Below, one piece after another: positions 5,664 through 26,497 of a stretch of 64,000 nt of DNA (the first letter of the stretch is position 1; each line of letters opens with the position of its first letter). The stretch lies in assembly GCA_029569255.1 (NCBI GenBank), contig JAKQUO010000028.1:1335-65334 (forward strand), read 5' to 3'. The position numbers and the translations under genes were made by a program. The DNA is from Acidobacteriota bacterium (GTDB lineage: Bacteria; Acidobacteriota; Aminicenantia; Aminicenantales; Saccharicenantaceae). The notes under the pieces are model-generated. The model did not search any database and had not been told where the DNA came from. It saw nothing but the letters and a program-made list of their open reading frames with translations.

Positions 5664-6313
5664 CCGAATCGGAGCTTTACCCCCGGATGAGCGAGGCCAT
5701 CGTCGCCGGCGACCGGGCCGCGGCCGCCGCGCTGGCCCGGGACGCCGTGCGCCAAGGCCTCGACCTTCTCGAGGTCGTCGACAAAGGCTATGTCCCGGGC
5801 ATCCAGAAGGTCGGCGTTCTCTGGGAGCAGGGCGAGTATTTCCTGCCCGAGCTCATCAGCAGCGCCGAGGCCATGAAGGCGGCCATGGCCGTCATCGACC
5901 CCGAGCTCACAAAGCGGAACCTCGGCTCGCGCCCCGGCGGCCGGGTCGTCATCGGGACGGTCGAGGGCGACATCCACGACATCGGCAAGAACCTGGTCGC
6001 CTCGATGCTCCAGGCCGGCGGCTTCGACGTCCACGACCTGGGCGCCGACGTCAAGCTGGAGCGCTTCATCGACAAGGCCGAGGAGGTCGGGGCGGGGATG
6101 ATCTGCCTCTCCGCGCTCCTGACGACGACCATGACCAACCAGCGGCGCCTGATCGGGATGCTCCGCGACCGGGGCCTGCGCGGCAAGTACAAGGTCCTGG
6201 TCGGCGGGGCCCCGGCCAGCCGCAAGTGGGCCGAGGAGATCGGGGCGGACGGCTACGCCGAGAACGCCGTGGCCGCGGTCAAGCTGGCCAAGTCCCTGGC
6301 CGCCGGCGCGTGA
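5660..6313 (+). CDS. Corrinoid (cobalamin)-binding protein, with B12-binding helical cap plus Rossmann domain
   Basis: 217 aa. DxHxxG cobalamin-ligand motif (EGDIHDIGKN). The GGAGG RBS is 6 nt upstream, and the ATG overlaps the preceding stop (ATGA). The layout resembles MtmC/MtgC and the MetH B12 domain. Confidence 0.85.
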   Translation: MTESELYPRMSEAIVAGDRAAAAALARDAVRQGLDLLEVVDKGYVPGIQKVGVLWEQGEYFLPELISSAEAMKAAMAVIDPELTKRNLGSRPGGRVVIGTVEGDIHDIGKNLVASMLQAGGFDVHDLGADVKLERFIDKAEEVGAGMICLSALLTTTMTNQRRLIGMLRDRGLRGKYKVLVGGAPASRKWAEEIGADGYAENAVAAVKLAKSLAAGA

Positions 6314-6358
6314 AGGCCCGGCAGGCCCGCGGGACGCCGGGAACGAAAGGGGCCGGAC

Positions 6359-9413: not shown

Positions 9414-10280
9414 TCAGTAGGGGTGGGCGCGGTAGTATTCGGCTTGGGCGGCCACGAAGACGGTCCTCATCCAGGCCCGGAACAGGACGTAGGCCTGCAT
9501 CCAGGCCAGCCCGGCCGCGACCCCGGCGACGCCCGGCGCGGCGAAGCGGCCCAGGACGACGTAGAAGACCGCCGTGCCGGCGACGGTCAGGAGGGCGAGG
9601 AGGAGATAGACGGCCCAGGCCCGGAAGAAGCGCTTCCCCAGGAACTTGAGGGCGTGGCGGAGGGCCCGGAGGACCTTGGCTTCGGCGTCGGCGACGACGG
9701 CGATCCGGGCGTAGTCGACGATCATGCGGACGGCGCTGAGGAGGAGCAGGGCGATGAGGAAATGGAGGTTCGACAGGATGAGCCGCGGCCACTCGGTCAC
9801 GGCGCTCTCCGTCGCGGGCCGGATCAGGGCCGAGAGCAGGTTGAGGACGGCCGCGAAGGCGAGGACGTGGAAGACGAGCGAGACGAGGAAGATGCGGACG
9901 AAGCGCCAGAAATAGCGGCCGCAGTCGGCGAAGAAAGGCTCGAGCGTCGTCCGGCCCTCCCGGTCGAGGAGACGGCCGACGACGCCGCCGTTCAGGAACA
10001 GGGAGAGGGCGAAATAGAGCAGGGCCGCGGCCAGCGCCTGGCCGATCACGGCCGGCGCCGCGTCGCCGTACTTGAGCGCGGCCTCCCCGAGCCACATGAC
10101 GTCCACGGGCCGGACGTTCGAACCGAGGAAAGAATGGCCGAGCTCGCTCTGGACGACGGCGAAGAACGGGAGCAGGACCGCGGCCGCGAAACCGAGGTTG
10201 AAGACGTAGAGGATGACCGCGAGCCGGGGCTTGCGGACCGCCGAGCCCAGGCCCTTGACGACGGCTTGGAGAACGCTCAC
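9414..10280 (-). CDS. Hypothetical polytopic membrane protein
   Basis: 288 aa with several hydrophobic helices and coding-like composition, unlike the surrounding GC artefacts. No family recognised. Confidence 0.55.
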   Translation of the reverse strand: MSVLQAVVKGLGSAVRKPRLAVILYVFNLGFAAAVLLPFFAVVQSELGHSFLGSNVRPVDVMWLGEAALKYGDAAPAVIGQALAAALLYFALSLFLNGGVVGRLLDREGRTTLEPFFADCGRYFWRFVRIFLVSLVFHVLAFAAVLNLLSALIRPATESAVTEWPRLILSNLHFLIALLLLSAVRMIVDYARIAVVADAEAKVLRALRHALKFLGKRFFRAWAVYLLLALLTVAGTAVFYVVLGRFAAPGVAGVAAGLAWMQAYVLFRAWMRTVFVAAQAEYYRAHPY

Positions 10281-12454: not shown

Positions 12455-12907
12455 TCAGCCCTTCAGCCATTCTTCCCAGGCGACGCGCCGGGGAAAGTGG
12501 ATGAAGACGAGGACGAGAGAGACGGCCAGGAGCCGGTAGAAATCCGCGGCGCCTCCGCCGATGAGGAAGAGGACGAGGCCGAGCAGGGCCGGGACCTCGC
12601 CGAGGACCACGGTCAGGAACGAGGCCCTCTGGAGCCGCAGGAGGGCCGTCGCGGCGTCCTCCCCCGCCCGGCGGTTGAAGAGGCGCGGCCGGAGGAGGAG
12701 GATGAGGAGGACCGCGGCGGCGCCGGCGCCGTAGAACGCGTAGCGGAGGGGCTGCGTGTCGCCGACCGAGGCGAAGCCGCGGAAGGGCTCGAGGGTCGCC
12801 TTCAGGGCCTCGACCGTGGCCAGGTACAAGAACAGGCTGGCCAGAGCCGCCGCGGCAACCCACGTCGCCGGCCTGAGGGCGCGCCCGATCTCGTCCAGAG
12901 GGTTCAT
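12455..12907 (-). CDS. Small hypothetical membrane protein (3-4 TM helices)
   Basis: 150 aa, hydrophobic. Co-directional with the M1 peptidase and immediately upstream of it. Confidence 0.5.
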   Translation of the reverse strand: MNPLDEIGRALRPATWVAAAALASLFLYLATVEALKATLEPFRGFASVGDTQPLRYAFYGAGAAAVLLILLLRPRLFNRRAGEDAATALLRLQRASFLTVVLGEVPALLGLVLFLIGGGAADFYRLLAVSLVLVFIHFPRRVAWEEWLKG

Positions 12908-14860: not shown

Positions 14861-16306
14861 ATGAAAGTCGCATTCCTCGCCTCCGAAGTCAACCCTTACG
14901 CCAAAACGGGCGGGCTGGCCGATGTGGCCGGGTCCCTGCCCAAATTCCTCGTCCGCCAGGGGGCCGAAGTCCGGACCTTCATGCCCCTCTACCGGGAGGT
15001 CCGGAAGAAGAGCCTGCCGCTCGAGCCGGTCCTCGACAAGGCCAAACTGACCATGGGGGGCCGGTCCATCCCCTACGCCGTCTTCGCCCACCGGGCCGAG
15101 GGCGTCACGACGTTCTTCGTCGACCACCCCGGCTATTTCGACCGGGACGCCCTCTACGGCACGCCGGCCGGCGATTACCCCGACAACGCCGAGCGCTTCG
15201 GCTTCTTCTCCCGGGCCGCCCTGGAGACGATGCGGGCCGTCGGCTTCCGGCCGGCGATTGTCCACGCCCACGACTGGCAGGCGGCGGCCGCCGTCGCCTA
15301 CCTCAGGTTCGTCCATGCCGGCGACCCCTTCTTCTCCGGCGCCCGCTCGGTCTTCACCATCCACAATCTGGCCTACCAGGGGCTGTTCGGGAAGGAGGTC
15401 CTGCCGGCGATCGGGCTCCCCGAGTCCCTCTTCAACATGAACGACCTCGAATTCTTCGGCCAGGTCAACACCCTCAAGGCCGGCATCCTCTACTCGACGG
15501 CGGTCACCACCGTCAGCCCGCGCTACAGCCGGGAGATCCAGACGCCCGAGTTCGGCTGCGGCCTGGACGGGCTGCTGCGGAGCCGGGCCGGCGTCCTCCA
15601 CGGCATCCTCAACGGCGTCGACTACCAGGACTGGGACCCGGCCACGGACCCCCTCATCCCGCGCAACTACGCCCCCGGCGACCTGGCCGGCAAGAAGGCC
15701 TGCCGCGAAGAGCTCGCCCGCCTCTTCGGCCTGGCTCTCCAGCCCGGCCGTCCGCTGGCCGGCATGGTGACGCGCCTGGCCGGGCAGAAGGGCCTCGACA
15801 TCGTCTGCGAGGCCCTCGAAGCGCTCCTCGGCCAGGGCCTGTCGCTCGTCATCCTGGGCACGGGCGACCGGAAGATCCAGGACTTCCTCGCCGCCGCCCA
15901 GAAAAAGCACGCCGCCCAGTTCGGGCTGAAGATCGCCTTCGACGAGAAGATCGCCCGCACGATCTACGCCGGGAGCGACATCTTCCTCATCCCCTCGCGC
16001 TACGAGCCCTGCGGCCTGACCCAGATGTACGCGATGAGGTACGGGACGGTCCCCGTCGTCCGGGCCACCGGCGGCCTCGACGACAGCGTCGAGGAGTTCG
16101 ACGCCGCGGCGGCGGCGGGCAACGGCTTCAAGTTCGCCGAGGCCGCTCCCGGGCCCCTGCTCGAGGCCTCGGCCCGGGCCGTCGCGGCCTTCGGCCGCCC
16201 GGCCGACTGGAGCGCGCTCGTCCGCAACGCCATGTCCGCGGACTTCTCCTGGGGCCGCTCGGCCGAGACCTACCTCGGCCTCTACGAGATGATCGCCGCT
16301 TCTTGA
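14861..16306 (+). CDS. glgA: Glycogen synthase (ADP-glucose type, GT5)
   Basis: MKVAFLASEVNPYAKTGGLADVAGSLP (KTGGL motif). 481 aa. Confidence 0.9.
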   Translation: MKVAFLASEVNPYAKTGGLADVAGSLPKFLVRQGAEVRTFMPLYREVRKKSLPLEPVLDKAKLTMGGRSIPYAVFAHRAEGVTTFFVDHPGYFDRDALYGTPAGDYPDNAERFGFFSRAALETMRAVGFRPAIVHAHDWQAAAAVAYLRFVHAGDPFFSGARSVFTIHNLAYQGLFGKEVLPAIGLPESLFNMNDLEFFGQVNTLKAGILYSTAVTTVSPRYSREIQTPEFGCGLDGLLRSRAGVLHGILNGVDYQDWDPATDPLIPRNYAPGDLAGKKACREELARLFGLALQPGRPLAGMVTRLAGQKGLDIVCEALEALLGQGLSLVILGTGDRKIQDFLAAAQKKHAAQFGLKIAFDEKIARTIYAGSDIFLIPSRYEPCGLTQMYAMRYGTVPVVRATGGLDDSVEEFDAAAAAGNGFKFAEAAPGPLLEASARAVAAFGRPADWSALVRNAMSADFSWGRSAETYLGLYEMIAAS

Positions 16307-16307
16307 C

Positions 16308-17336
16308 CTAAGGCTGCTTCAGGAACTGGGCCGCGGTCTCCGGCGGGACCGGATTGATGTAGAACCCCGTCCCCCATTCGAACCCGGCCATCTTCGTCAG
16401 GACGGGGATGATCTCCACGTGCCAGTGCGACTTCAGGTGGATGTCCGGCCAGCTCTTGAGCGAGAGGGCCGGGTTGGGGGCCTGGTGGAGGACCATGTTG
16501 AAGGGCGGGTCGCCGACCGTTTCCTTGAGCCGGGTCAGGACGGCCTTCAGGATTCCGGCCAGGGCCAGGAGCTCGTCCTCGCCGGCGTCGGTGAAGAAGG
16601 CCGAGTGCCGCCGCGGGAAGACGGCCATCTCGAACGGCGAGCGCGAAGCGTAGGGCGCGATGGCCGTGAAATGGGCGTTGCGGGCCACCAGCCTCTTCCC
16701 CGCCGCCTCCTCCTCCCGCAGGACGCGGCAGAAGACGCACTCCTTGAAGGTCCGGAACATCCGGTCGGCGCCGTAGATTTCCTCCTTGATGCGCTTGGGG
16801 ACGATCGGCGTCGCCACCAGCTGCGAGTGCGGGTGGCTCAGCGAGGCCCCGGCCTCCCTGCCCTTGTTCTTGAAGATCTGGACGTACTGGTAATGGAGGT
16901 CGCGTTCGATGGCCCGGATCCGGAGCTGGAAGACCCTGAACACGTCGCGGATATGGGCGACGGCGAGGTCCCCGAGCTCGAGGGCGTGGTCCGGGTTCTC
17001 GATGACGACCTCGTGGACGCCGCGGCCCTCCATCGACTGGAAGGCGCCCTCCGTGGCCCGGGGCGGCGGCGGACCGGGGGTCAGGGCCGGGAACTTGTTG
17101 GGCACGACCCGGACCGTCCAGCCCGGCGTGTCGGGGCCCGTCCCCGCTTTCCGCAGGGCGAAGACCTCGGGCGGCGTCTTCGCCTCGTTGCCTTCGCAGA
17201 ACGGACAGAACCCGGGCGCCTCCGGGGGCGGGGCCGCGCCTCCGGCCGGCCGGAAGTCGTCGGGGCGCTTGCTGCGTTCGGTGGCGATGATGACCCATCG
17301 CCCGCTGACCAGGTCTTTTCTCAGCTCCGACATCAT
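16308..17336 (-). CDS. Galactose-1-phosphate uridylyltransferase-family (GalT/HIT-like) nucleotidyltransferase
   Basis: CPFCEGNE zinc knuckle and HPHSQ active-site motif. The ATGATG start overlaps the stop of the receiver gene. Its position in a glycogen operon makes an NDP-glucose phosphorylase/uridylyltransferase role plausible. Confidence 0.75.
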   Translation of the reverse strand: MMSELRKDLVSGRWVIIATERSKRPDDFRPAGGAAPPPEAPGFCPFCEGNEAKTPPEVFALRKAGTGPDTPGWTVRVVPNKFPALTPGPPPPRATEGAFQSMEGRGVHEVVIENPDHALELGDLAVAHIRDVFRVFQLRIRAIERDLHYQYVQIFKNKGREAGASLSHPHSQLVATPIVPKRIKEEIYGADRMFRTFKECVFCRVLREEEAAGKRLVARNAHFTAIAPYASRSPFEMAVFPRRHSAFFTDAGEDELLALAGILKAVLTRLKETVGDPPFNMVLHQAPNPALSLKSWPDIHLKSHWHVEIIPVLTKMAGFEWGTGFYINPVPPETAAQFLKQP

Positions 17337-17689
17337 TCCCCCAGCAGCTGCTTGATCCGGGCCTTGAGCTCTTCGAGCGAGGCGGACTTGACGACGTAGG
17401 CGTCGGCCGCCCAGGTCATGAAGTCCTCCTTGTAGCTCTGGTAGGCCGAGTTGATGATGATGGGGATGTCCTTGCGCAGGCCCATGATCTCGGTGATGAG
17501 CTCGATGCCGTTCTTGCCCGGCATGCGGATGTCGGTGACGATGAGGTCGAAGGACCCCTCCCGGAGGGCGGCCAGGGCCGCCTCCGCGTCCGTCACCGCC
17601 GTGATCTCGTAGCCCTCTCCCCGGAGCTCCTCCTCGTAGAGCAGGCAGAGGGGCTTCTCGTCCTCGACGAGCAGGATCCTTTTTGTCAT
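17333..17689 (-). CDS. Single-domain response regulator (CheY-like receiver)
   Basis: MTKRILLVEDEKPLCLLYEEELRGEGYEITAVTDAEAALAALREGSFDLIVTDIRMPGKNG (D..D...K receiver signature). 118 aa. The upstream part of the track ORF is artefact. Confidence 0.85.
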   Translation of the reverse strand: MTKRILLVEDEKPLCLLYEEELRGEGYEITAVTDAEAALAALREGSFDLIVTDIRMPGKNGIELITEIMGLRKDIPIIINSAYQSYKEDFMTWAADAYVVKSASLEELKARIKQLLGE

Positions 17690-19035
17690 GACGTCGACTC
17701 CCTTTCCTGGCTGATGAATTGCAATTTGAAGACCGAGCCCCGGCCGACCCGGCTGAGGACCTCGACCGACCCGCCGCAGGTGTCCATGACCCGCTTGATG
17801 AACGGCAGGCCCAGGCCCATGCCCTTGTCCTTGGTCGTGAAGAAGGGCTGGAAGAGATGGGCCTTGGCCGGATTGGTGAGGCCCCGGCCCGTGTCCCGGA
17901 CGGACAGGGCGAAGGCCGTCGGGGACCTTCGGTAGGTGCGGACCGAGATGGTCCCGCCCGGCGGGGTGGCGTCGAAGGCGTTGTCGATGAGATTGCGCAG
18001 GACCTCGCCGAAGGAGGTGGGGTCGCAGAGGATCTTGGGCGGGCAGGCGTCCACCTTGGCGTCGAGCGTGTACGCCTTGGCCCGGCTCTGGACCTGCGGG
18101 CTGTCCAGCACCTCGGCGATGGCCGGCGCGGGATCGAAGAAGACGGGCTCCTTGAGGCTGACCTTGAGGAAGTGGCCCATCTGGTAGATGATGACCTCGA
18201 GCCGGCGGATCTCGTCCCGGATGATGTTCAGGTTGCGGACCCTCTTCTCCTCCGGCAGGTCGGGCTTGAGGAGCTGGTCGGTGAAGCCGCCGATGGCCAC
18301 GATGGGATTGCGGAGCTGGTGGGTGACGAACATGGCCATCTCGCCCATGGCCGCCATCTTCTCCATGTTGAGGAGCCGGCGGTGGAGCGTCGTCGAGTGG
18401 ATGTAGTTGCCGGCCATCAGGCCGCAGATGCCGGCCAGCTTGATGTCGGAGGGCGAGATCGGCGTCCGGGTGATGGCGTTGTCGAGGATGATCTCGCCGA
18501 CGACGTCGTCGCCGGCGACGAGCGGGACGCAGAGGAACTCGTCGACGCCGATGATGTTGAGGAAGCGGCGGTCGACCCGGGGCTCCTGGGCCGCCTCGCG
18601 GACGTGGAGGATCTCCTTGCGGCCGGCCACGGAGGCCGGGATGAGGGCCTTCGGGTCGTTGGCCGGGTAGACCAGGCCCCGGAGGCGGGCGCTGAGCGTG
18701 TCCGCGTTCTTGTTGACCAGGGCCCGGTTGTGCTCGAGGATCTCGACATAGCCGATGCCCGGCGTCGACAGGACCTCCCAGATGAGCCCGGCCTCCTCGG
18801 CCGAGCGCGGCCCCAGCCACATCTCGCCTCTGAGGCGGTCGTCGCTCTTGAGGAAGAGCATGGCCCGGTTGAAGCCGACGCCCGAGCCCGAGGTCAGGGC
18901 GGTCAGGACGACGAGGAGGTTGTCCTCGAGCGAGAAGGGCTGGAAGAAGCTCTGGGAGATGATGGACAGGAGCATCAGCTCGCGGGGCGCCTCCCGCTCG
19001 AAGCTCGGGGAGAGGATGTTGTAGGTCTCGATCAT
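17686..19035 (-). CDS. Sensor histidine kinase with GAF sensor domain (GAF, HisKA, HATPase_c)
   Basis: H-box FVTHQLRNP. N/G boxes (NLIDNAFDAT, RDTGRGL, GMGLGL). Start MIETYN at complement 19033..19035 overlaps the glgC stop (ATGA). Its stop overlaps the receiver start. Confidence 0.8.
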   Translation of the reverse strand: MIETYNILSPSFEREAPRELMLLSIISQSFFQPFSLEDNLLVVLTALTSGSGVGFNRAMLFLKSDDRLRGEMWLGPRSAEEAGLIWEVLSTPGIGYVEILEHNRALVNKNADTLSARLRGLVYPANDPKALIPASVAGRKEILHVREAAQEPRVDRRFLNIIGVDEFLCVPLVAGDDVVGEIILDNAITRTPISPSDIKLAGICGLMAGNYIHSTTLHRRLLNMEKMAAMGEMAMFVTHQLRNPIVAIGGFTDQLLKPDLPEEKRVRNLNIIRDEIRRLEVIIYQMGHFLKVSLKEPVFFDPAPAIAEVLDSPQVQSRAKAYTLDAKVDACPPKILCDPTSFGEVLRNLIDNAFDATPPGGTISVRTYRRSPTAFALSVRDTGRGLTNPAKAHLFQPFFTTKDKGMGLGLPFIKRVMDTCGGSVEVLSRVGRGSVFKLQFISQERESTS

Positions 19036-20216
19036 TCGGAGGACCATCCCTTGGGGACCACCCGGACGCCGGCCCGGCTCGTCTTGAAGTTGCGGGCGTC
19101 CTTGTCGGCGTCGAAACCGATCTCGAAGCGTTCGGGGACCGCGGCGGACTTGTCGATGATGACCTTGCGCAGCCGGGCGCCCCGGAGGACGCGGACGTTG
19201 TCGAAGACGATCGAGTCGACGATGTCCGCTCCGGGCTCGACCCGGACGCCGGCGCCGACGATCGAGTTGACGATCCGGCAGTCGCTGAACGAGCCGCCGG
19301 CGCCGACGATCGAGTTCCGGATGTCCCCGCCGGCCACGAACGTCGGCGGGTACTGGGGCTTGTAGGTCCGGACCGGCCAGGCCGGGTCGCGCAGGATGAG
19401 CGGCGGCGCCGGCGAGAGGAAGGCCATGTTGGCCTCCCAGTAGGCGTCGATCGTGCCGATGTCCTCCCAGTAGTCGTCGAACGTGTAGGCGAAGACGCGG
19501 TGGCTCTTGATGAGGGCCGGGATGATGTCGCGGCCGAAGTCGTGCGTGCTCCTTGACGACCGGGCGTCCCGGAGCAAGGCCTTGATCAGGACCGCCGTCT
19601 TGAAGAGATAGACGCCCATGGAGATGAGGCTTTTGCCCGCGTCCCACGGCGTCGCGAAGGGTTTCTTGGGCTTCTCCATGAACTCGACGATCCGCCGCTC
19701 GCCGTCGACGCCGATGACGCCGAAGCGGGAGGCCTCGCTCACGGGGATGGTCCGGGTCATGATCACGGCGTCCGCGTCCGCCTGGCCGAAGAAGAGGAGC
19801 AGCTTGCGGTAGTCGGAGCTGTAGATGTGGTCGCCGGACAGGACCAGGACGGCCTCGGGGCTCTCCTGCTGGATGGTGTAGATGTTCTGGAGGACGGCGT
19901 CGGCCGTGCCCGCGTACCAGCTGTCGCTGACCCGGCCCTGGGCCGGGAGGGACAGGATGTAGTCGCCGCTCTCGGCATGGAAGATGTTCCAGCCGTTGAA
20001 GATGTGGCGGTCGAGGGAGAGCGACTTGTACTGGGTCAGGAGGGCGATCCGCCGCAGGCCCGAGTTCAGGGCGTTGGACAGGCTGAAGTCGATGATCCGG
20101 TAGGCCCCGAGGAAGGGGACGGACGGCTTGGCCCGGTCGCGCGTCAGCGGATAGAGACGCTCGCCCTTGCCCCCGCAGAGGACCATGGTCAGGGTCTTCT
20201 TAGATAACAGTTCCAT
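19032..20216 (-). CDS. glgC: Glucose-1-phosphate adenylyltransferase
   Basis: MVLCGGKGERLYPLTRDRAKPSVPFLGAYRIIDFSLSN plus C-terminal left-handed beta-helix repeats. An alternative start 30 nt downstream is possible. Confidence 0.85.
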   Translation of the reverse strand: MELLSKKTLTMVLCGGKGERLYPLTRDRAKPSVPFLGAYRIIDFSLSNALNSGLRRIALLTQYKSLSLDRHIFNGWNIFHAESGDYILSLPAQGRVSDSWYAGTADAVLQNIYTIQQESPEAVLVLSGDHIYSSDYRKLLLFFGQADADAVIMTRTIPVSEASRFGVIGVDGERRIVEFMEKPKKPFATPWDAGKSLISMGVYLFKTAVLIKALLRDARSSRSTHDFGRDIIPALIKSHRVFAYTFDDYWEDIGTIDAYWEANMAFLSPAPPLILRDPAWPVRTYKPQYPPTFVAGGDIRNSIVGAGGSFSDCRIVNSIVGAGVRVEPGADIVDSIVFDNVRVLRGARLRKVIIDKSAAVPERFEIGFDADKDARNFKTSRAGVRVVPKGWSSE

Positions 20217-21855
20217 CGGGCATCACGATCTCTTTGAAGATGCGGTCGTCGGACTCGAAGGCCTCGAGGAGCGAGACCTCGGCGGGGCCGAGGGCCCGGC
20301 CGGCCTCGAGCCAGCCGAGGAGGGTCAGGGCCCTGTCGAAGTGCTCGGCGGCCCGGCTCTCGGCGTAGTCGCGGGCCGACCGGGTCGAGACGAGGAACGG
20401 CCAGTCGGAGCTCTCGAGCAGGTATTTCTCGCGGAAGAACTGGCGGAGGAGCCGCCGGTCGAGGCCGGCCAGCCGGGGCGTCAGGGCCGCCGCGGCCGCC
20501 TCGACGCGGTAGATCTTCTCCCAGATCCAGGCCGTGTCCCGGTTGAGCCAGTTCCCGTGGAAGCCGCCCTGGCCCCAGGACCCCTCGGGGAGGGCGACGG
20601 ACGCGGCCGGCGGCATGGCCTCGAGCGCGGCCCCGGCGGTCGCCGGCCGGACCGGGCCCGCCTGGAGCTTCTTGACGACCCGGTAGAGCCACTCGGGCCC
20701 TTCGAACCACCAGTGGCCGAAGAGCTCGGTGTCGTAGAGGGCGGCGACCGTCCCCGCCTCCCTCGCCGCGAGCGTCGCCTCGAGGGCCGAGACGAAGTGG
20801 GCGGCGTGCTCTTCCGCCCGGGCCGCGGTCCGGTCCGGCTCGTAAGGCTCTTTGAGGCCCAGGTCGGCCTCGCCCGAGGTGACGCGCCAGTAGCGCATCC
20901 CCCCCGGGAAGCGCTTCTTGTGGAACTCCAGGTAGTCGCCGTCGCCGGGATAGCCCGTGTCCCGGCTCCAGACCTGCGCGCCGGAGACGTCGTCCCGGGC
21001 GAAGAACGGGAGTCCCGAGGGAAGGGCCGCGTAGGGGGAATAGGGGTCGCGGGACGGCGCCTCGGCCGGCCGGACGGCCTCCCGGGCCTTCTCCCAGAGG
21101 AGCCTCAAGCCGGGAAAACGGTCGAGGTAGACGCCCTCGGTCTCCCCGCCCCTGAGAAGGTGCGCGTCGACGAAGAAATAGCGGAGGCCCTCCTGGCCCA
21201 GGATCTCGTCGAGGCCGAGCCGGGGATGGGCGTCGCCGTCGCCGACCGGGCTCTTCCAGGCGTAGCCCGGCCGGTAGGCGCACTCGGGGAGCCAGAAGCC
21301 GAGGGCCTCCCGGCCGAAATATCTCTTGTACGTGTGGAGGCCCTGGCGGACCTGCTGGCGGACCGTCTCGTCCCGCGAAAGAAGGGCGAGATAGGCGTGC
21401 GTCGCCGCCGAGGTCAGGACTTCGATGTGGCCGCGGTCCTGGAGGGAGCGGAACGCGCCGAGAATGTCCCCGCCGGCGCGGCCGTGGAAGCTCGCCCGGA
21501 GCTCCCGGTACCAGCCCTCCCAGAACGCCGCGAGGTCCCGGAGGCCGCTCTCCCCCGCGCGCTCGAAGTGGGCCCGGTCGTCGGCCGCGGCGTCCTCCTT
21601 CATCCTCAGGTACGCGTCGAAGCCCCCGGCGAAGACGGGGTCCTTGAGCTGCTCCATGAGGACCGGCGTGAAGCTGACGCTCGTCCGGGCGGAGATGCCC
21701 TCGGCGGCCAGGCGCTCGAAGACGTCGAGGAGCGGCAGATAGGTCTCCGCGGCGGCCTCGTAGAGCCAGTCCATCCCGTGCGGCCAGCTGCCGTGGTCCA
21801 GGACGTACGGGATGTGGCTGTGGAGGACGAGCGAGAAATACTTACCGGGCATCAC
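20200..21855 (-). CDS. GH57-family glycoside hydrolase (1,4-alpha-glucan branching enzyme type)
   Basis: 551 aa. N-terminal FSLVLHSHIPYV and the GH57 catalytic region. Overlaps neighbouring genes by 14-17 nt. Confidence 0.8.
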   Translation of the reverse strand: MMPGKYFSLVLHSHIPYVLDHGSWPHGMDWLYEAAAETYLPLLDVFERLAAEGISARTSVSFTPVLMEQLKDPVFAGGFDAYLRMKEDAAADDRAHFERAGESGLRDLAAFWEGWYRELRASFHGRAGGDILGAFRSLQDRGHIEVLTSAATHAYLALLSRDETVRQQVRQGLHTYKRYFGREALGFWLPECAYRPGYAWKSPVGDGDAHPRLGLDEILGQEGLRYFFVDAHLLRGGETEGVYLDRFPGLRLLWEKAREAVRPAEAPSRDPYSPYAALPSGLPFFARDDVSGAQVWSRDTGYPGDGDYLEFHKKRFPGGMRYWRVTSGEADLGLKEPYEPDRTAARAEEHAAHFVSALEATLAAREAGTVAALYDTELFGHWWFEGPEWLYRVVKKLQAGPVRPATAGAALEAMPPAASVALPEGSWGQGGFHGNWLNRDTAWIWEKIYRVEAAAAALTPRLAGLDRRLLRQFFREKYLLESSDWPFLVSTRSARDYAESRAAEHFDRALTLLGWLEAGRALGPAEVSLLEAFESDDRIFKEIVMPDGTVI

Positions 21856-23815
21856 TTTCCCTGAGCGCGACCGACAAGCGTTGCGTGGTGCCGGGGGCCA
21901 GCTCCAGCGGCCAGACCGGACAGAGACAATAACCCTGGTGGATTATATCAAAACCCTCCTCGGATTGGGAGAGCGTCCGCAGGGGGAACGCCCACAGGGC
22001 CGCGGCCCCGGCCGGCTCGAAGAGGAGCGCGCCACCGTAGAGGGACACCCGGCCGTCGTCCCGGAGCTCGTACTCGTGGGGAAAGGCCAGCAGGTTCCAC
22101 TCGGAGCCGAAGAGAAGGGAGAGAGGCCGGCCGGCCCCGTTCTCGATCTCGATGTCGACGCGGAGCGCCCCGCCGGCGCTGGCGATCGTCTTGCGGAGGA
22201 CGATGGGCCGGCCGCCCTCCTCCCCCCGGACCGAGCCGCGCCGCTCCAGCCGGAGCGACGGGCCCGCGATGGCCGGCGTGAAAGCGCCGCCGACGAAATC
22301 GCCCAGCTCCTCGAAGGCGGCCGAGCGGAACGCCTCGGCCGTCGTGCCCGGGGCGAAGACATGGTCGATGAGCGAGAGGCGCGGATAGAGGTCGTAGCGC
22401 AGGAGCTCGGCGGTGTCCGGAGGGAGCCTCTTGGCGAGCTCGTGGATGCTCTTCCCCGTCCCGCCCTCCCCTTCCCCGTCCTTCGCGCCCTGCCGGTGGT
22501 AGGCCTCCGGCCGCCGGCCGAGGACGTCGGAGATGTTCCGCGAGGCGGGCCGGTGGTCGATCTCGACCAGGGCGCCGCCGGCGGAGGGCTTGACCATCAG
22601 GCCGAACGCGGCGTCCCGGTAGACCAGCTCCCGGAACCCGTCCCCGTCGTAGTCGAGCGTGATCCAGCCCGGCGGGTCGGGCGTCCGCTTCTCGGCCTCG
22701 AGGAGATGGTGATAGGCGGCCTCCCGGAGATGGGGCAGGTAGAGCCCCCCGAAGACGCCGTGCCAGTACGGGTCGTTGCACTGGCCCCGGTAGAGGTGCC
22801 TCAGCCCCTCTCCGGGCGCCCCGGCGGCGCGGAGGCCGTCCGAGACCATGACCATGCGCTTGTGAAGCCGGTTGGCCTCGGGATACTTGCGCAGGAAGTC
22901 CCGGAAGAACCCGCCCCGGAGGAAGCGCCGGGCCTCGGGCGGGACGCCGGCCTTGAGCCGGGCGAGCGCCTCCTGGTCCTCGGGTTCGAGGACCCACTCC
23001 GTCATCTCCTCGTACGACGCCGGGGGCAGGTAGATCCGCGCGGCCGGGGGGTTCGTGTCCAGGAACTCGGAGAAGGAGACCGTCCGGATGCCCCGGTCTT
23101 CGACATGGGCCAAGAAGGACCGCAGCCAGCCGCCGTCGTAGACCCGGGCGCGGGTGCCGGGCCAGAGCCCGAACTTCTCCCCGTCGTCGCCGAGGATGGC
23201 CGTCCCCCCGGCGTCGTGGATGGCCCGCAGCCGGGCGTCGACGTCGCCGAGGGGATGGAACGGGACGAGGTAGCGGAGCGCCTTGTCGACCGGGAAGACC
23301 CGGAGCGTCCGGCCCTCCTCCTCGGTGATGTAGCTCGCGCCGAGGTCGCGGACGCCGGCGCAGCGGAAGTGCTCCTCGTCGAGGAGCGTGTATTCGAGGC
23401 CGGCCTCGGCCAGGACCTTGGGGAGATGGGGCTCCCAGACGCGCTCCGTGAGCCAGAGGCCGCGCGGCCGCTGGCCGAAGCTCTCGCGGATGAAGTCGTT
23501 CATCATCCTCAGCTGGCCGGCCCGGTCGGCCTCGGGGATGAGGGACAGGACCGGCTCGTAGAAGCCGCCGCCGAGGAGCTCGACCTGGCCGCGGCCGGCG
23601 AGCTCCCGCACGAGGTCCCAGCAGCCCCTCTCGTTCTTCTCCATGTGCTCCCAGAGCGGTCCGGAGAAGTGGAGGGCGAAGCGGAACCCGGGATGGCCGG
23701 CCAGGACCTCGAGGAACGGCCGGTAGCAGGCGTCGAAGGCCGCCTTGACGACGTGATCGAAGTTGCCGACGGGCTGGTGGTTGTGGACCGCGAACAGGAA
23801 GAGGCGGCGGCTCAT
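21842..23815 (-). CDS. GH57-family glycoside hydrolase (alpha-amylase / 4-alpha-glucanotransferase type)
   Basis: 657 aa. LFLFAVHNHQPVGNF N-terminus typical of GH57. Confidence 0.8.
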   Translation of the reverse strand: MSRRLFLFAVHNHQPVGNFDHVVKAAFDACYRPFLEVLAGHPGFRFALHFSGPLWEHMEKNERGCWDLVRELAGRGQVELLGGGFYEPVLSLIPEADRAGQLRMMNDFIRESFGQRPRGLWLTERVWEPHLPKVLAEAGLEYTLLDEEHFRCAGVRDLGASYITEEEGRTLRVFPVDKALRYLVPFHPLGDVDARLRAIHDAGGTAILGDDGEKFGLWPGTRARVYDGGWLRSFLAHVEDRGIRTVSFSEFLDTNPPAARIYLPPASYEEMTEWVLEPEDQEALARLKAGVPPEARRFLRGGFFRDFLRKYPEANRLHKRMVMVSDGLRAAGAPGEGLRHLYRGQCNDPYWHGVFGGLYLPHLREAAYHHLLEAEKRTPDPPGWITLDYDGDGFRELVYRDAAFGLMVKPSAGGALVEIDHRPASRNISDVLGRRPEAYHRQGAKDGEGEGGTGKSIHELAKRLPPDTAELLRYDLYPRLSLIDHVFAPGTTAEAFRSAAFEELGDFVGGAFTPAIAGPSLRLERRGSVRGEEGGRPIVLRKTIASAGGALRVDIEIENGAGRPLSLLFGSEWNLLAFPHEYELRDDGRVSLYGGALLFEPAGAAALWAFPLRTLSQSEEGFDIIHQGYCLCPVWPLELAPGTTQRLSVALRESDAR

Positions 23816-23833
23816 CCCGGCTCCTCGGGGCCC

Positions 23834-24913
23834 TCAGCGGTGCAGGAAGCAGCGTTCCGAATCGACCTCGCCCGGCTTGCGGGTGGCGATCATGGCCAGG
23901 CCGAGCTCGTCGGCCTTGTCTATGACCTCCCGGTCCCTGACCGATCCCAGCGGGTAGATGATGGCGCTGATGCCGTTCCTTCCGGCCAGCTCGACGACGT
24001 CGGGGAAAGGCATGAACGCGTCGGAGGCGAGGACGCATCCCTCCGGCCCGTAGCCGCGCCGGGAGAGCCGGATCGCGTCCTCGGCCGAGTCGACGCGGCT
24101 CCGCTGCCCGGAGCCGATGCCGTGGGTCTTGTCCCCCGTGCCGATGACGACCGCGTTGGACCGGGTGAAGCAGGCCACCGTCCAGTTGAAGAGGGCCGCC
24201 CGCACCTCCTCGGGGCCGGGCCGCCTCTTGGAGACGACGTCCACGGACTCGGCCGAGACGATTTTCGAGTCGAAGCGCTTCTGGACGAGCAGCCCCCCGG
24301 CCACGCGCTTGAGCTCGAGGCCGCTGTCGACCGACGGCGCGTCGAGGGCGGCGCCCATCTTGACGACGCGCAGGACCTTGCGGGCGGCCAGGGCCTCCAG
24401 GGCATCGGCGGCGAAGTCGGGCGCGTAGACGACCTCGACGTTGCGCGGGCTCTCGGCGAGGAGCCGGGCCAGCGCCGCGGTGACCCGGTAGCCGACGACG
24501 ACGACGCCGCCGAAGTTCGACAGCGGGTCGCACCCCCAGGCCTTCTCGAAGGTGGCCACGGCCTCGTCGCCCAGGGCGACCCCGCTCGGCATCTCGTGCT
24601 TGATGATGACGCAGGCCTGGCGTCCCGGGAAGACCTGGACGAGCTTGCGGGCCAGCCGCTGGCCCAGGTCCATGTCCCCGACGTTGATGTAGCTCAGGCC
24701 CTTGGTGCCCTCCTGGAGGACCTCGATCCGGCCCATGTTGGGCCCTTCGGCCCCGACCTCCTGGTAGAAGGCGGCCGGAGTGCCGGGATTCTCGCCGTAG
24801 CGCATCGGGAACTTCTTGACGAACGCGCTCTCGCCGACGCGCAGGGTCTCCGGGAAGTCCTCCCGCACCTTGGCTTGGTACTGGCTCCGGGCCGTCCGTT
24901 CGGGCTCGCTCAT
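23834..24913 (-). CDS. AICAR transformylase-only PurH (AICARFT domain without the MGS-like IMP cyclohydrolase domain)
   Basis: 359 aa. C-terminus ASDAFMPFPDVVELAGRNGISAIIYPLGSVRDREVIDKADELGLAMIATR...RCFLHR matches the bacterial PurH C-terminal AICARFT signature (ASDAFFPF...IIQPGGS.RD...FTG.RHFRH). No N-terminal IMPCH domain. Confidence 0.75.
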   Translation of the reverse strand: MSEPERTARSQYQAKVREDFPETLRVGESAFVKKFPMRYGENPGTPAAFYQEVGAEGPNMGRIEVLQEGTKGLSYINVGDMDLGQRLARKLVQVFPGRQACVIIKHEMPSGVALGDEAVATFEKAWGCDPLSNFGGVVVVGYRVTAALARLLAESPRNVEVVYAPDFAADALEALAARKVLRVVKMGAALDAPSVDSGLELKRVAGGLLVQKRFDSKIVSAESVDVVSKRRPGPEEVRAALFNWTVACFTRSNAVVIGTGDKTHGIGSGQRSRVDSAEDAIRLSRRGYGPEGCVLASDAFMPFPDVVELAGRNGISAIIYPLGSVRDREVIDKADELGLAMIATRKPGEVDSERCFLHR

Positions 24914-24917
24914 GGGG

Positions 24918-25649
24918 TCATGTCCTTTCGTGCCGGTTGATGACGCGGACCTCGGACCTGTCCGGCGCGGCCGGATCGAGGAAGACGACGGCGACGGCGA
25001 CGCGGAAGTCCCTGCCCTCGGCGGCCGGCCCGAGGGCGCCGTAGCACGCCGCCGCCGTCTCCGCGGCGGTCGAGCCGACGAGGTCGACGAAGCGCGGCTC
25101 GCCCCGGAAGACCGGCAGCGGGTCGGCGTTCGGGCCTTCGTAGGTCGAGACGAGGCGCCCCTCCCCCGCCCGGAGGCGGACCTCGAAGAAGCTCCGCAGC
25201 GTCTCCCCCGACGGCCCGCGGCGGACGACGCCCAGGGCCGCGCCCGAGGCCGCCAGACAGCCGCTGATCCGCGGCGTGAAGATGGGCGCGTCCGGCTCGA
25301 AGTCCCAGCCGGCGAGGGCGGCCGAGAGGATGGGGACCGGGCCGAGCCCGGGCCGGAGCCAGTCGCGGACGTCGGCCGTCTGCTTGCCGTTCGAGACGGC
25401 GACGCCGCCCGGCGAGAACAAGAGGGCGGGATAGACGAGCAGGTCGACGTTCCCCGTCTTGAGCGCGGCCTCGTCGGTCGGCTCGACCCACACGCCGCCG
25501 TCCCGATGGACGAGCTTCCGGGCCTGGCTCGACGGCGAGCGCCCGGTGATGGCGTAGACGACCGCGGCCCGCCCGGAGGGGGCGGCGCCGATGACGATCA
25601 CCCGGCCGGGATACTCGAGCGCCGCCATGTCGATGCGTTGAGGGTCCAT
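24918..25649 (-). CDS. Archaeal-type IMP cyclohydrolase PurO homologue
   Basis: YPGRVIVIGAAPSGRAAVVYAITGRSPSSQAR and LLVYPALLFSPGGVAVSNGKQTAD align with Methanocaldococcus PurO blocks ([52 protein letters not shown]), as recalled from memory. Confidence 0.6.
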   Translation of the reverse strand: MDPQRIDMAALEYPGRVIVIGAAPSGRAAVVYAITGRSPSSQARKLVHRDGGVWVEPTDEAALKTGNVDLLVYPALLFSPGGVAVSNGKQTADVRDWLRPGLGPVPILSAALAGWDFEPDAPIFTPRISGCLAASGAALGVVRRGPSGETLRSFFEVRLRAGEGRLVSTYEGPNADPLPVFRGEPRFVDLVGSTAAETAAACYGALGPAAEGRDFRVAVAVVFLDPAAPDRSEVRVINRHERT

Positions 25650-25745
25650 CGGAACGTCCTTTCCCGCCTCACTTTAACAGAGCCCCCGCGCGAAGTCAAA
25701 GAGGGCCGGCGGCCGCTTCCGCCCTTGAGCGCCCGGGAGAGATTC

Positions 25746-25754
25746 TGGTAGAAT
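25746..25754 (+). promoter_or_regulatory. Extended -10 promoter TGgTAGAAT for the LOG-family gene
   Basis: gattcTGgTAGAATgggccggaaaggcggtcccgATG. Confidence 0.4.
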
Positions 25755-25774
25755 GGGCCGGAAAGGCGGTCCCG

Positions 25775-26497
25775 ATGCCCGAAGAATCCTTCCGCGACCC
25801 TCATTTCATCGAATCCCTGGAAGGCCGGACGCTCCGGATCCTGAGCGAGTACCTCGGCCCCATGGCGCGCCTCGACAAGGCCAAGGTCAACAGCACCATC
25901 CTCTTCCTGGGCTCGGCCAAGGCCAACCCGGCCGACGCCGCCTCCGCCTTCCACCGTTATTATTGGGAGGCCGAGGAGCTGGCCTACCTCCTGGCCAGGT
26001 GGGCCATCTCGGTCAAGGCGCCGAAGGGCAAGGACTTCGTCGTCTGCACGGGCGCCGGGCCGGGGATCATGGAGGCGGCCAACCGGGGCGCGGCCCGGGC
26101 CGGCGGCAAGACGATCGGCATGAACATCTCCCTCCCCCAGCCCCAGCCGTCCAACCCCTACATCACCCCGGAGCTGTCCTTCTCCTTCCATTACTTCTTC
26201 ATGCGCAAGTTCTGGCTGACCTACAAGGCCAAGGCGATCATCGCCTTCCCCGGCGGCTTCGGCACGCTCGACGAGTTCTTCGAGATCGCGACGCTCCTCC
26301 AGACGAGCAAGATCTCGAAGCGGGAGATGGCCCTCGTCCTCTACGGCGGCGACTACTGGCGGGACCTGATCGATTTCGACTCGATGGCCGCCAAGGGCGC
26401 CATCTGCGCCGACGACCTCAAGCTCTTCCGCGTCTGCTCGACGCCGCGCCAGGCATTCGCCTATCTCAAGAAGCGCCTGTCGGAGACCCTTGCCTGA
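25775..26497 (+). CDS. LOG-family protein (TIGR00730 Rossmann fold; cytokinin-riboside-5'-monophosphate phosphoribohydrolase-like)
   Basis: GGKTIGMNISLP and PGGFGTLDEFFE motifs. 240 aa. Confidence 0.8.
   Translation: MPEESFRDPHFIESLEGRTLRILSEYLGPMARLDKAKVNSTILFLGSAKANPADAASAFHRYYWEAEELAYLLARWAISVKAPKGKDFVVCTGAGPGIMEAANRGAARAGGKTIGMNISLPQPQPSNPYITPELSFSFHYFFMRKFWLTYKAKAIIAFPGGFGTLDEFFEIATLLQTSKISKREMALVLYGGDYWRDLIDFDSMAAKGAICADDLKLFRVCSTPRQAFAYLKKRLSETLA

What the first reader, a model, noticed from the sequence alone, without database searches (positions are those of the whole stretch)
23834..25649. Split PurH: AICAR-transformylase-only protein paired with an archaeal-type PurO IMP cyclohydrolase
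The 359-aa protein has the complete AICARFT C-terminal domain of PurH, including the ASDAFFPF...RHFRH end, but no MGS-like IMP-cyclohydrolase domain. Immediately upstream on the same strand (4-nt gap) is a 243-aa protein whose conserved blocks align with Methanocaldococcus PurO, the unrelated archaeal IMP cyclohydrolase. A PurO plus truncated-PurH pair in a bacterium suggests non-orthologous displacement of the cyclohydrolase step, possibly after lateral transfer from archaea.
Basis: partly seen in the sequence, partly recalled or inferred. Interest (0 to 1): 0.55.

Follow-up and report, generated by a model that had tools for sequence, protein, structure and literature searches.

The report
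Split purine genes purO plus AICAR transformylase
An Aminicenantes bacterium appears to make IMP with two adjacent small genes, a PurO-type cyclohydrolase and a stand-alone AICAR transformylase, instead of the usual fused PurH; this arrangement is real but was already described for other bacteria in 2019.

Summary
ORF 24918-25649(-), 243 aa, is a PurO-family protein. It scores 102.6 bits on Pfam PF07826, and its AF2 model (pLDDT 95) best matches the PurO crystal structures 1kuu and 2ntk. ORF 23834-24913(-), 359 aa, is an AICAR-transformylase-only protein (PF01808, 207 bits). It covers PurH profile positions 192-504 of 510 and keeps the catalytic Lys-His. The two genes are 4 nt apart.

The sequence is from a Candidatus Aminicenantes MAG. 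The exact PurO protein is already named "IMP cyclohydrolase" at NCBI. The pair is a lineage trait: purV directly follows purO in 74 of 78 informative species-level genomes.

The general phenomenon is published. Cruz et al. 2019 (PMC6486802) described bacterial purO/purV pairs that replace purH, though not in this phylum.

The suggestion of archaeal lateral transfer is not supported. This PurO belongs to a large, longer (about 240 aa) type found mainly in bacteria. It is 22-25% identical to Methanobacteriales PurO and shows no compositional anomaly.

I could check for a purH or IMPCH domain only in the 64-kb window, where there is none. The whole genome was not testable. No bacterial PurO has been tested biochemically. 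Verdict: an ordinary new member of a known kind, of low interest.

The parts
24918..25649 (-). purO-like gene: 243-aa PurO-family (Ntn-fold) IMP cyclohydrolase of the long, about 240-aa type found mainly in bacteria
   Evidence: Pfam PF07826 scores 102.6 bits against a cut-off of 28.1. hhalign of the family profile against an archaeal PurO profile gives probability 99.2%, E 7e-20. The AF2 model has pLDDT 95.1; the top Foldseek PDB hits are 1kuu, 2ntk and 2ntm at E 4e-15 to 2.5e-14 and TM 0.72/0.85, and the next hits are proteasome subunits with TM below 0.45. Residues invariant with archaeal PurO: Y13 G15 R16 R37 Y73 N87 G88 E118 D120 T125 R127 I128 Y170. The identical protein is named 'IMP cyclohydrolase [Candidatus Aminicenantes bacterium]' at NCBI.
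23834..24913 (-). purV gene (AICARFT-only; called 'PurH1' in the other nomenclature): 359-aa 10-formyl-THF-dependent AICAR transformylase without the IMPCH/MGS domain
   Evidence: PF01808 scores 207 bits. The protein aligns to PurH model positions 192-504 of 510. phmmer against M. tuberculosis PurH 3zzm gives E 9e-44 over chain residues 222-516. The motifs IIKHEMPSG (K105-H106), SNAVV...GIGSGQRSRVDS and ASDAFMPFPD are conserved. All 120 best homologue clusters are 352-365 aa long and 76-100% identical.
24914..24929 (-). purO-purV junction: a Shine-Dalgarno-like GAAAGGA (24929-24923) inside the 3' end of purO, the purO stop TGA (24920-24918) and a 4-nt spacer (24917-24914) before the purV ATG
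   Evidence: Read directly from the sequence. In the 64 loci whose PurV is more than 60% identical to the window's (the Aminicenantes-type pairs) the estimated purO-purV gap is 1-15 nt. This fits co-transcription and translational coupling, which is an inference.
25671..25699 (-). sigma-70-like promoter candidate for purO-purV: TTGACT, 17-nt spacer, TG-TAAAGT, ending 22 nt upstream of the purO ATG. A Shine-Dalgarno-like GGAAAGGA lies at 25664-25657.
   Evidence: The consensus scan found 2 sites in 23500-26000 against 0.0 expected from shuffles. Both lie in the 125-nt divergent intergenic region. This is a consensus match only. No riboswitch was found upstream, ZTP included.

Best explanation
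This is a two-gene operon, purO-purV, of an Aminicenantes (Acidobacteriota) bacterium. I infer that it carries out the last two steps of IMP synthesis in place of the usual fused PurH. PurV is a homodimeric AICAR transformylase that keeps the PurH catalytic Lys-His. It would formylate AICAR with 10-formyl-tetrahydrofolate to give FAICAR. The PurO-type enzyme has an Ntn-hydrolase-like fold unrelated to the MGS-like IMPCH domain of PurH. It would close the ring of FAICAR to give IMP.

The genes are 4 nt apart, with a ribosome-binding site for purV inside purO. They are therefore probably co-transcribed and translationally coupled, which would give balanced amounts of the two enzymes. That matters because the transformylase reaction needs to be pulled forward by the cyclohydrolase.

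Shown here: the domain content, the fold, conservation of active-site-region residues, gene adjacency and its conservation across the lineage. Inferred: the two catalytic activities, co-transcription, and the absence of purH from the rest of the genome.
For: - HMM membership of both proteins.
- PurV aligns to solved PurH AICARFT domains with the KH catalytic dyad and the substrate and folate motifs intact.
- The PurO-like model (pLDDT 95) has solved PurO structures as its only strong fold matches.
- Profile-profile probability against archaeal PurO is 99.2%.
- Residues invariant across archaeal and bacterial-type sequences include Arg, Glu and Tyr side chains, the classes proposed as catalytic for PurO (PMC6797443 citing Kang 2007).
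- purV directly follows purO in 74 of 78 informative species-level genomes, with 1-15 nt gaps in the 64 Aminicenantes-type pairs.
- PurV length (352-365 aa) and sequence are conserved in all 120 best homologue clusters.
- None of the 56 genes called in the 64-kb window has an MGS/IMPCH domain, is a full-length purH or is a second AICARFT.
- Folate/C1 enzymes are present nearby: FTCD and a methyl-corrinoid:THF module.
- Published comparative genomics reports that bacterial purV/purO pairs anticorrelate with purH. Of the 20 genomes with both genes, 1 also had purH (PMC6486802, Table 1).
Against: - No bacterial PurO has been assayed. Only archaeal enzymes have been (PMC6797443; literature searches).
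- The protein scores below NCBI's PurO equivalog cut-offs.
- Absence of purH, purJ or purP from the rest of the genome was not testable.
- The only other purine-pathway-like gene in the window is a PurF-like protein below its family cut-off, so a complete de novo pathway is not demonstrated.
- Three related genomes have purO with no purV within 5 kb.
Confidence: 0.85

Rival explanations
1. Recent lateral transfer of purO from archaea into this bacterium, displacing the IMPCH domain.
For: PurO was first regarded as an archaeal signature protein. The family is homologous to archaeal PurO. A few contigs labelled as archaeal (L083 Thermoplasmatota, L077 Nanoarchaeota) carry the long type.
Against: - Identity to Methanobacteriales PurO is only 22-25%, against 44-52% to PurO on Spirochaetota-, Thermodesulfobacteriota- and Thermoplasmatota-labelled contigs.
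- The protein is well below the archaeal equivalog cut-offs.
- It shares two insertions and a C-terminal extension with a family of 1405 clusters found mainly in bacteria.
- In an NJ tree a long branch separates the archaeal sequences from the whole long-type clade.
- GC3 of 0.96 equals that of the neighbouring genes.
- The gene is present across the Aminicenantes.
- The published tree places bacterial PurO outside archaeal PurO (PMC6486802).

My archaeal sample was Methanobacteriales only, so an ancient transfer from another archaeal group is not excluded.
Confidence: 0.05
2. The pair is an accessory or redundant copy. A normal purH or purJ exists elsewhere in the genome, and purO-purV serves a specialised role, for example recycling AICAR released by histidine biosynthesis.
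For: Whole-genome absence of purH was not tested. Cruz et al. found 4 of 22 bacterial purO genomes that also had purH. The pair is not next to other pur genes; it sits beside glycogen genes and a LOG-family gene.
Against: - Of the 20 published genomes with both purV and purO, 1 had purH.
- There is no purH or IMPCH in the 64-kb window.
- The pair is strongly conserved across the class.
- Recycling AICAR uses the same two reactions, so this is not really a different mechanism.
Confidence: 0.07
3. The PurO-like protein has a different activity from IMP cyclohydrolase, acting as another Ntn-fold amidohydrolase or cyclohydrolase, and only PurV acts in purine synthesis.
For: - The score is below the equivalog cut-offs.
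- Identity to the characterised enzyme is about 23%.
- Extra insertions are present.
- No bacterial member has been assayed.
- Position Tyr56 of the archaeal active site is not conserved in bacterial PurO (PMC6486802). In this protein the aligned residue is Leu70 or Asp69, depending on the alignment.
Against: - The residues conserved between the archaeal and bacterial types are the ones that are family-invariant in archaeal PurO: mth Y2 G4 R5 R25 Y59 N73 G74 E104 D106 T110 R112.
- The published count is 10 of 14 active-site positions identical.
- purO is tightly coupled to purV in 74 of 78 genomes, and it pairs with two or more deeply divergent PurV lineages.
Confidence: 0.05
4. Artefact: a purH truncated by a frameshift or an assembly error.
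For: None beyond the short length of the protein.
Against: - The identical 243-aa and 359-aa proteins occur on 39 and 38 independent contigs respectively, and four loci from separate samples that were read carry both genes in the same arrangement.
- All 120 best homologue clusters are 352-365 aa long.
- The upstream ORF is a complete protein of an unrelated fold with a confident model.
- GC3 of 0.96 in both frames shows ordinary coding sequence.
Confidence: 0.01

Closest known systems
Bacterial purV/purO gene pairs replacing purH (Cruz et al. 2019, Genome Biol Evol, PMC6486802)
   Same: The two protein families are the same: an AICARFT-only 'PurV' and a PurO homologue. The genes are adjacent or operonic, and the inferred role is the same, namely steps 9 and 10 of purine biosynthesis without PurH. 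The PurO is of the same divergent type, with the active-site region conserved.
   Different: That survey of 1266 complete bacterial genomes found the pair in Clostridia, Bacilli, Actinobacteria, Spirochaetes, Fibrobacteres and Epsilonproteobacteria, not in Acidobacteriota/Aminicenantes. Here the pair is a class-wide trait of the Aminicenantes. Their PurV is a distinct lineage, only 28-30% identical to the PurV that accompanies the closest non-Aminicenantes PurO and 36.5% identical to the M. tuberculosis PurH C-domain. The pair is not in a pur cluster.
Archaeal PurO (MTH1020, PDB 1kuu/2ntk-2ntm; MJ0626; TK0430)
   Same: The fold is the same (Foldseek E about 1e-14, TM 0.85 on the target). The family is homologous (hhalign probability 99.2%). 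The conserved Arg, Glu, Tyr, Asn-Gly and Thr-Pro-Arg positions are shared.
   Different: Sequence identity is only 22-25%. The protein is about 40 residues longer, with two internal insertions (around residues 145-152 and 172-181) and a longer C-terminus. It is below the NCBIfam equivalog cut-offs. In methanogens PurO usually partners with the formate/ATP-dependent PurP rather than with a folate-dependent transformylase. The archaeal enzyme has been shown to be active; this one has not been tested.
Bifunctional PurH/ATIC (for example PDB 3zzm, 1zcz, 1g8m)
   Same: PurV corresponds to the whole C-terminal AICARFT domain, from the linker onward, with the catalytic Lys-His and the substrate-binding motifs.
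   Different: PurV lacks the N-terminal MGS-like IMP cyclohydrolase domain. That function is supplied by an unrelated fold encoded immediately upstream, so the gene order matches the domain order in PurH.
NCBIfam NF005492 (PRK07106) stand-alone AICAR formyltransferase
   Same: It is also an AICARFT-only protein.
   Different: This protein scores only 100 bits against a cut-off of 415. It is closer to the C-terminal half of bifunctional PurH (282 bits). NCBI therefore leaves it as 'hypothetical protein'.

Membership tests
PurO / IMP_cyclohyd (Pfam PF07826) | Score above the Pfam gathering threshold | tested here: met
   102.6 bits against a cut-off of 28.1, E 2.7e-29, covering residues 13-204.
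PurO archaeal equivalog (NCBIfam TIGR01922, NF003167) | Score above the curated equivalog cut-off | tested here: not met
   53.3 bits against 158.35, and 66.6 against 150. The protein belongs to the divergent long subfamily found mainly in bacteria, not to the curated archaeal equivalog.
PurO / IMP_cyclohyd | Ntn-hydrolase-like four-layer fold that superposes on solved PurO structures | tested here: met
   AF2 model with pLDDT 95.1 and pTM 0.93. Foldseek finds 1kuu, 2ntk and 2ntm at E 4e-15 to 2.5e-14, TM 0.72 (query) and 0.85 (target). The next hits are proteasome subunits with E above 6e-4.
PurO / IMP_cyclohyd | Conserved active-site residues (Arg, Glu and Tyr proposed as catalytic; 14 positions in mthPurO) | tested here: inconclusive
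   Residues invariant across archaeal and bacterial-type sequences: Y13 G15 R16 R37 Y73 N87 G88 E118 D120 T125 R127 I128 Y170, corresponding to mth Y2 G4 R5 R25 Y59 N73 G74 E104 D106 T110 R112 and others. S38 aligns with mth Ser26, while Ser24 aligns with G36. The position aligned with mth Tyr56 is not Tyr, as reported for bacterial PurO. The primary structure paper (Kang 2007) was not available, so the exact list of 14 residues could not be checked one by one.
PurO / IMP_cyclohyd | Catalyses FAICAR to IMP | not testable with these tools
   This needs an enzyme assay or complementation. In the papers searched, only archaeal members have been assayed (PMC6797443).
AICARFT domain of PurH (Pfam PF01808), as a stand-alone 'PurV' | PF01808 above threshold, with no MGS/IMPCH domain in the same polypeptide | tested here: met
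   207 bits against a cut-off of 25, and it is the only Pfam family hit. The protein aligns to PurH model positions 192-504 of 510.
AICARFT domain of PurH | Catalytic Lys-His dyad and the AICAR- and folate-binding motifs | tested here: met
   K105-H106 in IIKHEMPSG aligns with IIKHANPCG of 3zzm. SNAVV...GIGSGQRSRVDS and ASDAFMPFPD are conserved.
Bifunctional PurH equivalog (NF002049, TIGR00355) and stand-alone AICARFT equivalog (NF005492) | Score above the curated cut-off | tested here: not met
   282 against 402, 237 against 528 and 100 against 415. This is expected for a half-length protein of a separate lineage, and it explains the 'hypothetical protein' label at NCBI.
purV/purO system replacing purH (Cruz et al. 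2019) | purO and purV co-occur, adjacent on the same strand | tested here: met
   The gap here is 4 nt. purV directly follows purO in 74 of 78 informative species genomes.
purV/purO system replacing purH | No purH (or purJ) elsewhere in the genome | not testable with these tools
   Only the 64-kb window could be scanned; none of its 56 called genes qualifies. Whole genomes could not be searched.

The most novel reading that the evidence does not exclude
The PurO cyclohydrolase and its transformylase partner have separate evolutionary histories. The window's PurO is as similar to Spirochaetota PurO (48-52% identity) as it is to PurO of other Aminicenantes (47-50%). Its PurV, in contrast, is 67-73% identical within the class, only 28-30% identical to the Spirochaetota or Thermodesulfobacteriota PurV, and 36.5% identical to a bona fide PurH C-domain. 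One reading is that purO spread between bacterial phyla and repeatedly displaced the IMPCH-coding 5' half of a resident purH in situ, since the gene order purO-purV mirrors the domain order IMPCH-AICARFT. On that reading PurV arose several times by fission.
Probability: 0.25. Interest if true: 0.35.

Novelty: new member of a known kind. Interest (0 to 1): 0.2.

Why it matters
The finding adds little of principle. It extends a documented case of non-orthologous displacement, PurO in place of the IMPCH domain of PurH, to a whole uncultivated class, the Aminicenantes. It also shows that the long PurO type is far more widespread than the 22 genomes reported in 2019: at least 588 species genomes and 1405 clusters at 50% identity.

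The practical value is for annotation. NCBI leaves the transformylase partner as 'hypothetical protein' and JGI labels it as bifunctional PurH. Automated metabolic reconstructions of these MAGs may therefore wrongly score purine biosynthesis as incomplete, or assign the cyclohydrolase step to the wrong protein. No bacterial PurO has been tested biochemically, so one assay would validate thousands of annotations.

Tried and rejected
- **ZTP or other riboswitch upstream of purO.** Rfam found nothing at gathering thresholds over the whole window. A permissive scan of 25600-25830 gave only a chance-level hit. The candidate promoter leaves a leader of only about 15-20 nt.
- **PRK07106-type PurV beside PurO in Spirochaetota, Thermodesulfobacteriota and Thermoplasmatota.** I supposed these PurVs were of the NF005492 type. 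That is wrong: they score only 108-119 bits against a cut-off of 415, and they too resemble the PurH C-terminal half.
- **A PurV-specific N-terminal motif (Y..K....FP[DE]) as a possible PurO-docking element.** Rejected. As far as I recall the E. coli sequence, the FPxTL...MRYGEN stretch is the normal start of the AICARFT domain in PurH. This rests on memory and was not tested.
- **In-frame stop codons in high-GC3 frames elsewhere in the window (possible recoding).** Rejected. They are antisense shadow frames that share the third-codon position with the real genes.
- **Reading Kang et al. 2007 for the 14 active-site residues.** The paper is not held, and no supplement is held for Cruz et al..
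- **Genome scan with a 40-sequence alignment.** I repeated it with 10 sequences.
- **NJ tree of PurO.** It separates the Methanobacteriales sequences from the long type, but the deep branches within the long type are short. I draw no conclusion about transfers between bacterial phyla from it.
- **Whole-genome search for purH.** No available tool could scan the source genome or the complete Aminicenantes chromosomes.
Full report
**Observation**

The two ORFs are present exactly as described, on the minus strand: 24918-25649 (243 aa) and 23834-24913 (359 aa). The stop codon of the first is at 24920-24918. It is followed by the 4-nt spacer CCCC and then the ATG of the second at 24913. A GAAAGGA Shine-Dalgarno-like element lies inside the end of the first gene. 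Both ORFs have GC3 of 0.96, typical of real genes in this 70% GC sequence. The long ORFs on the opposite strand are antisense shadows.

**The 359-aa protein (PurV)**

- It matches Pfam PF01808 (AICARFT_IMPCHas) at 207 bits and no other family.
- Against NCBI's full-length PurH model it aligns only to positions 192-504 of 510. That is the linker plus the whole AICAR-transformylase half. There is no MGS-like cyclohydrolase half.
- Against solved structures it aligns to residues 222-516 of M. tuberculosis PurH (3zzm, E 9e-44). The catalytic Lys-His is conserved (K105-H106 in IIKHEMPSG), as are the SNAVV...GIGSGQRSRVDS and ASDAFMPFPD motifs.
- The C-terminus reads SERCFLHR rather than RHFRH.

**The 243-aa protein (PurO-like)**

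- It matches PF07826 (IMP_cyclohyd) at 102.6 bits against a cut-off of 28.1.
- It is well below NCBI's archaeal PurO equivalog cut-offs: 53 against 158, and 67 against 150.
- Direct sequence similarity to the solved Methanothermobacter PurO is weak (E about 1e-4, roughly 25% identity).
- A profile of 40 family members matches a profile of archaeal PurO with 99.2% probability (E 7e-20).
- An AlphaFold2 model (pLDDT 95.1, pTM 0.93) has the three PurO crystal structures as its only strong matches: 1kuu, 2ntk and 2ntm, E 4e-15 to 2.5e-14, TM 0.72/0.85. Proteasome subunits of the wider Ntn fold follow far behind.
- In a joint alignment with Methanobacteriales PurO the invariant positions are Y13 G15 R16 R37 Y73 N87 G88 E118 D120 T125 R127 I128 Y170. 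These correspond to Y2 G4 R5 R25 Y59 N73 G74 E104 D106 T110 R112 of the structurally characterised enzyme.
- Arg, Glu and Tyr side chains are the proposed catalytic groups of PurO (PMC6797443).
- I could not obtain the primary structure paper, so the 14 published active-site positions were not checked one by one. The published comparison reports 10 of 14 identical between archaeal and bacterial PurO (PMC6486802).

**Origin and distribution**

- The exact 243-aa protein is in NCBI as "IMP cyclohydrolase [Candidatus Aminicenantes bacterium]". The exact 359-aa protein is there as "hypothetical protein", while JGI calls it bifunctional PurH.
- The PurO-like family has 1405 clusters at 50% identity.
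- The best 80 loci are mostly Aminicenantes/Acidobacteriota. A group comes from Spirochaetota, Leptospirales and Thermodesulfobacteriota, and two contigs carry archaeal labels.
- In 74 of the 78 loci not cut by a contig end, a PurV gene follows purO directly on the same strand. The estimated gap is 1-15 nt in the 64 pairs whose PurV is more than 60% identical to the window's.
- Three genomes have purO with no purV within 5 kb.
- All 120 best PurV homologue clusters are 352-365 aa long. The short length is therefore a stable trait and not a truncation.

**Surroundings**

- I called 56 genes in the window using codon-position GC. I annotated them with Pfam and with precomputed Pfam hits on identical contigs.
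- There is no MGS/IMPCH domain, no full-length purH and no second AICARFT.
- The only other purine-like gene is a PurF-like protein at 60807-62216, below its family cut-off.
- Folate/C1 enzymes are present: a fused formiminotransferase-cyclodeaminase and a corrinoid-dependent methyltransferase module. This fits a folate-dependent transformylase.
- Upstream of purO a 125-nt divergent intergenic region holds two sigma-70-like sites, one for each direction, against 0.0 expected. It holds no riboswitch.
- Downstream, a GH57 glycogen cluster follows purV after 18 nt with no terminator. In other Aminicenantes 1.5-3 kb is inserted there, so that linkage is not conserved.

**Comparison with what is known**

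Cruz et al. 2019 (PMC6486802) surveyed 1403 complete genomes.
- They named the stand-alone AICARFT gene purV.
- They reported 22 bacterial purO genes, 19 genomes with purV/purO and no purH, and 1 genome with all three.
- They found an anticorrelation with purH and conservation of the PurO active site.
- Their tree separates bacterial PurO from archaeal PurO. They read this as vertical descent rather than archaeal transfer.
- Their bacterial set did not include Acidobacteriota.

Only archaeal PurO enzymes have been assayed (PMC6797443). I found no paper on purine biosynthesis in Aminicenantes and no experimental work on a bacterial PurO. This locus is therefore a new lineage-level example of a described arrangement.

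**The archaeal-transfer idea**

The protein is 22-25% identical to Methanobacteriales PurO. It is 44-52% identical to PurO on Spirochaetota-, Thermodesulfobacteriota- and Thermoplasmatota-labelled contigs. It shares two insertions and a longer C-terminus with the whole long type. In an NJ tree it sits across a long branch from the archaeal sequences. It shows no compositional anomaly. A recent transfer from archaea is thus not supported. My archaeal sample was Methanobacteriales only, so I cannot exclude an ancient event.

**A side observation on evolution**

PurO and PurV diverge discordantly.
- PurO identity between the window and Spirochaetota is 48-52%, the same as between the window and other Aminicenantes (47-50%).
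- PurV identity is 67-73% within the class. It is 28-30% to the Spirochaetota or Thermodesulfobacteriota PurV and 36.5% to the M. tuberculosis PurH C-domain.
- None of these PurVs belongs to NCBI's stand-alone AICARFT family NF005492.

This is compatible with separate histories for the two partners, but the deep branches of the PurO tree are unresolved. I give the idea about 25% probability.

**Verdict**

The functional reading, that a PurO-type cyclohydrolase plus a stand-alone AICAR transformylase does the job of PurH, is well supported by inference, with confidence about 0.85. The archaeal-transfer suggestion is not supported. The arrangement is already known in other bacteria and the PurO gene is already annotated. 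Interest is low at about 0.2. The main practical point is that the transformylase partner is unnamed or misnamed in public annotations.

Noticed in passing
window 25775-26497 (+): A LOG/TIGR00730-family gene (Pfam Lysine_decarbox/SLOG, with weak similarity to the PpnN nucleotide nucleosidase) is divergently adjacent to purO. They share a 125-nt promoter region. The arrangement is kept in 58 of 80 species loci, so a link to purine-nucleotide metabolism is possible.
   Followed up: partly
window 60807-62216 (+): A PurF-like amidophosphoribosyltransferase homologue (TIGR01134, 178 bits, below the 350-bit cut-off; only a weak Pfam GATase_7 hit). It is the only other purine-pathway-like gene in the window.
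   Followed up: partly
window 2992-7831 (+): A four-gene module: a RACo reductive activator, a homocysteine-S-methyltransferase-like (methyl-THF) protein, a corrinoid-binding protein, and an MttB-family methyltransferase encoded by an uninterrupted ORF (no in-frame stop). It looks like a methylamine or quaternary-amine demethylation system that feeds THF.
   Followed up: no
window 47650-49332 (+): A fused formiminotransferase-cyclodeaminase (FTCD_N, FTCD and FTCD_C domains, 560 aa), which is another folate-dependent C1 enzyme. It sits next to two M16 peptidase genes.
   Followed up: no
window 14924-23815: A glycogen cluster built on GH57 enzymes: a GH57 4-alpha-glucanotransferase, a GH57 branching enzyme, glgC, a histidine kinase, a response regulator and galT, with glgA on the opposite strand. 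It starts 18 nt after purV on the same strand with no terminator. Other Aminicenantes have 1.5-3 kb inserted between purV and the GH57 gene.
   Followed up: partly
window 23834-24913 (-) and homologues: Annotation gap. NCBI labels the exact protein, and every other homologue in the listing that carries an NCBI name, as 'hypothetical protein'. JGI labels these homologues as bifunctional 'AICAR transformylase/IMP cyclohydrolase PurH'.
   Followed up: yes
L083 5001-7141; L077 5001-5687: Long-type PurO occurs on contigs labelled Thermoplasmatota archaeon (followed by a PurV about 100 nt downstream) and Nanoarchaeota archaeon (no PurV nearby). This could be real or a binning or labelling error; I did not check.
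   Followed up: no
L031, L077, L082 (PurO at about 5001-5710): Two low-GC Aminicenantes genomes (one of them the complete chromosome CP070825.1) and the Nanoarchaeota-labelled contig L077 carry purO with no purV within 5 kb downstream. The pairing is therefore not universal.
   Followed up: partly
window 9414-10280 (-) and 12455-12907 (-): Two confidently coding ORFs (288 aa and 150 aa, GC3 about 0.95) have no Pfam match at E below 1e-4.
   Followed up: no
window 54380-57972 (+): A hydantoinase/oxoprolinase A and B subunit pair. An L-PSP/RidA gene lies upstream, and a carbon-nitrogen hydrolase and an aminopeptidase P gene lie downstream on the opposite strand.
   Followed up: no
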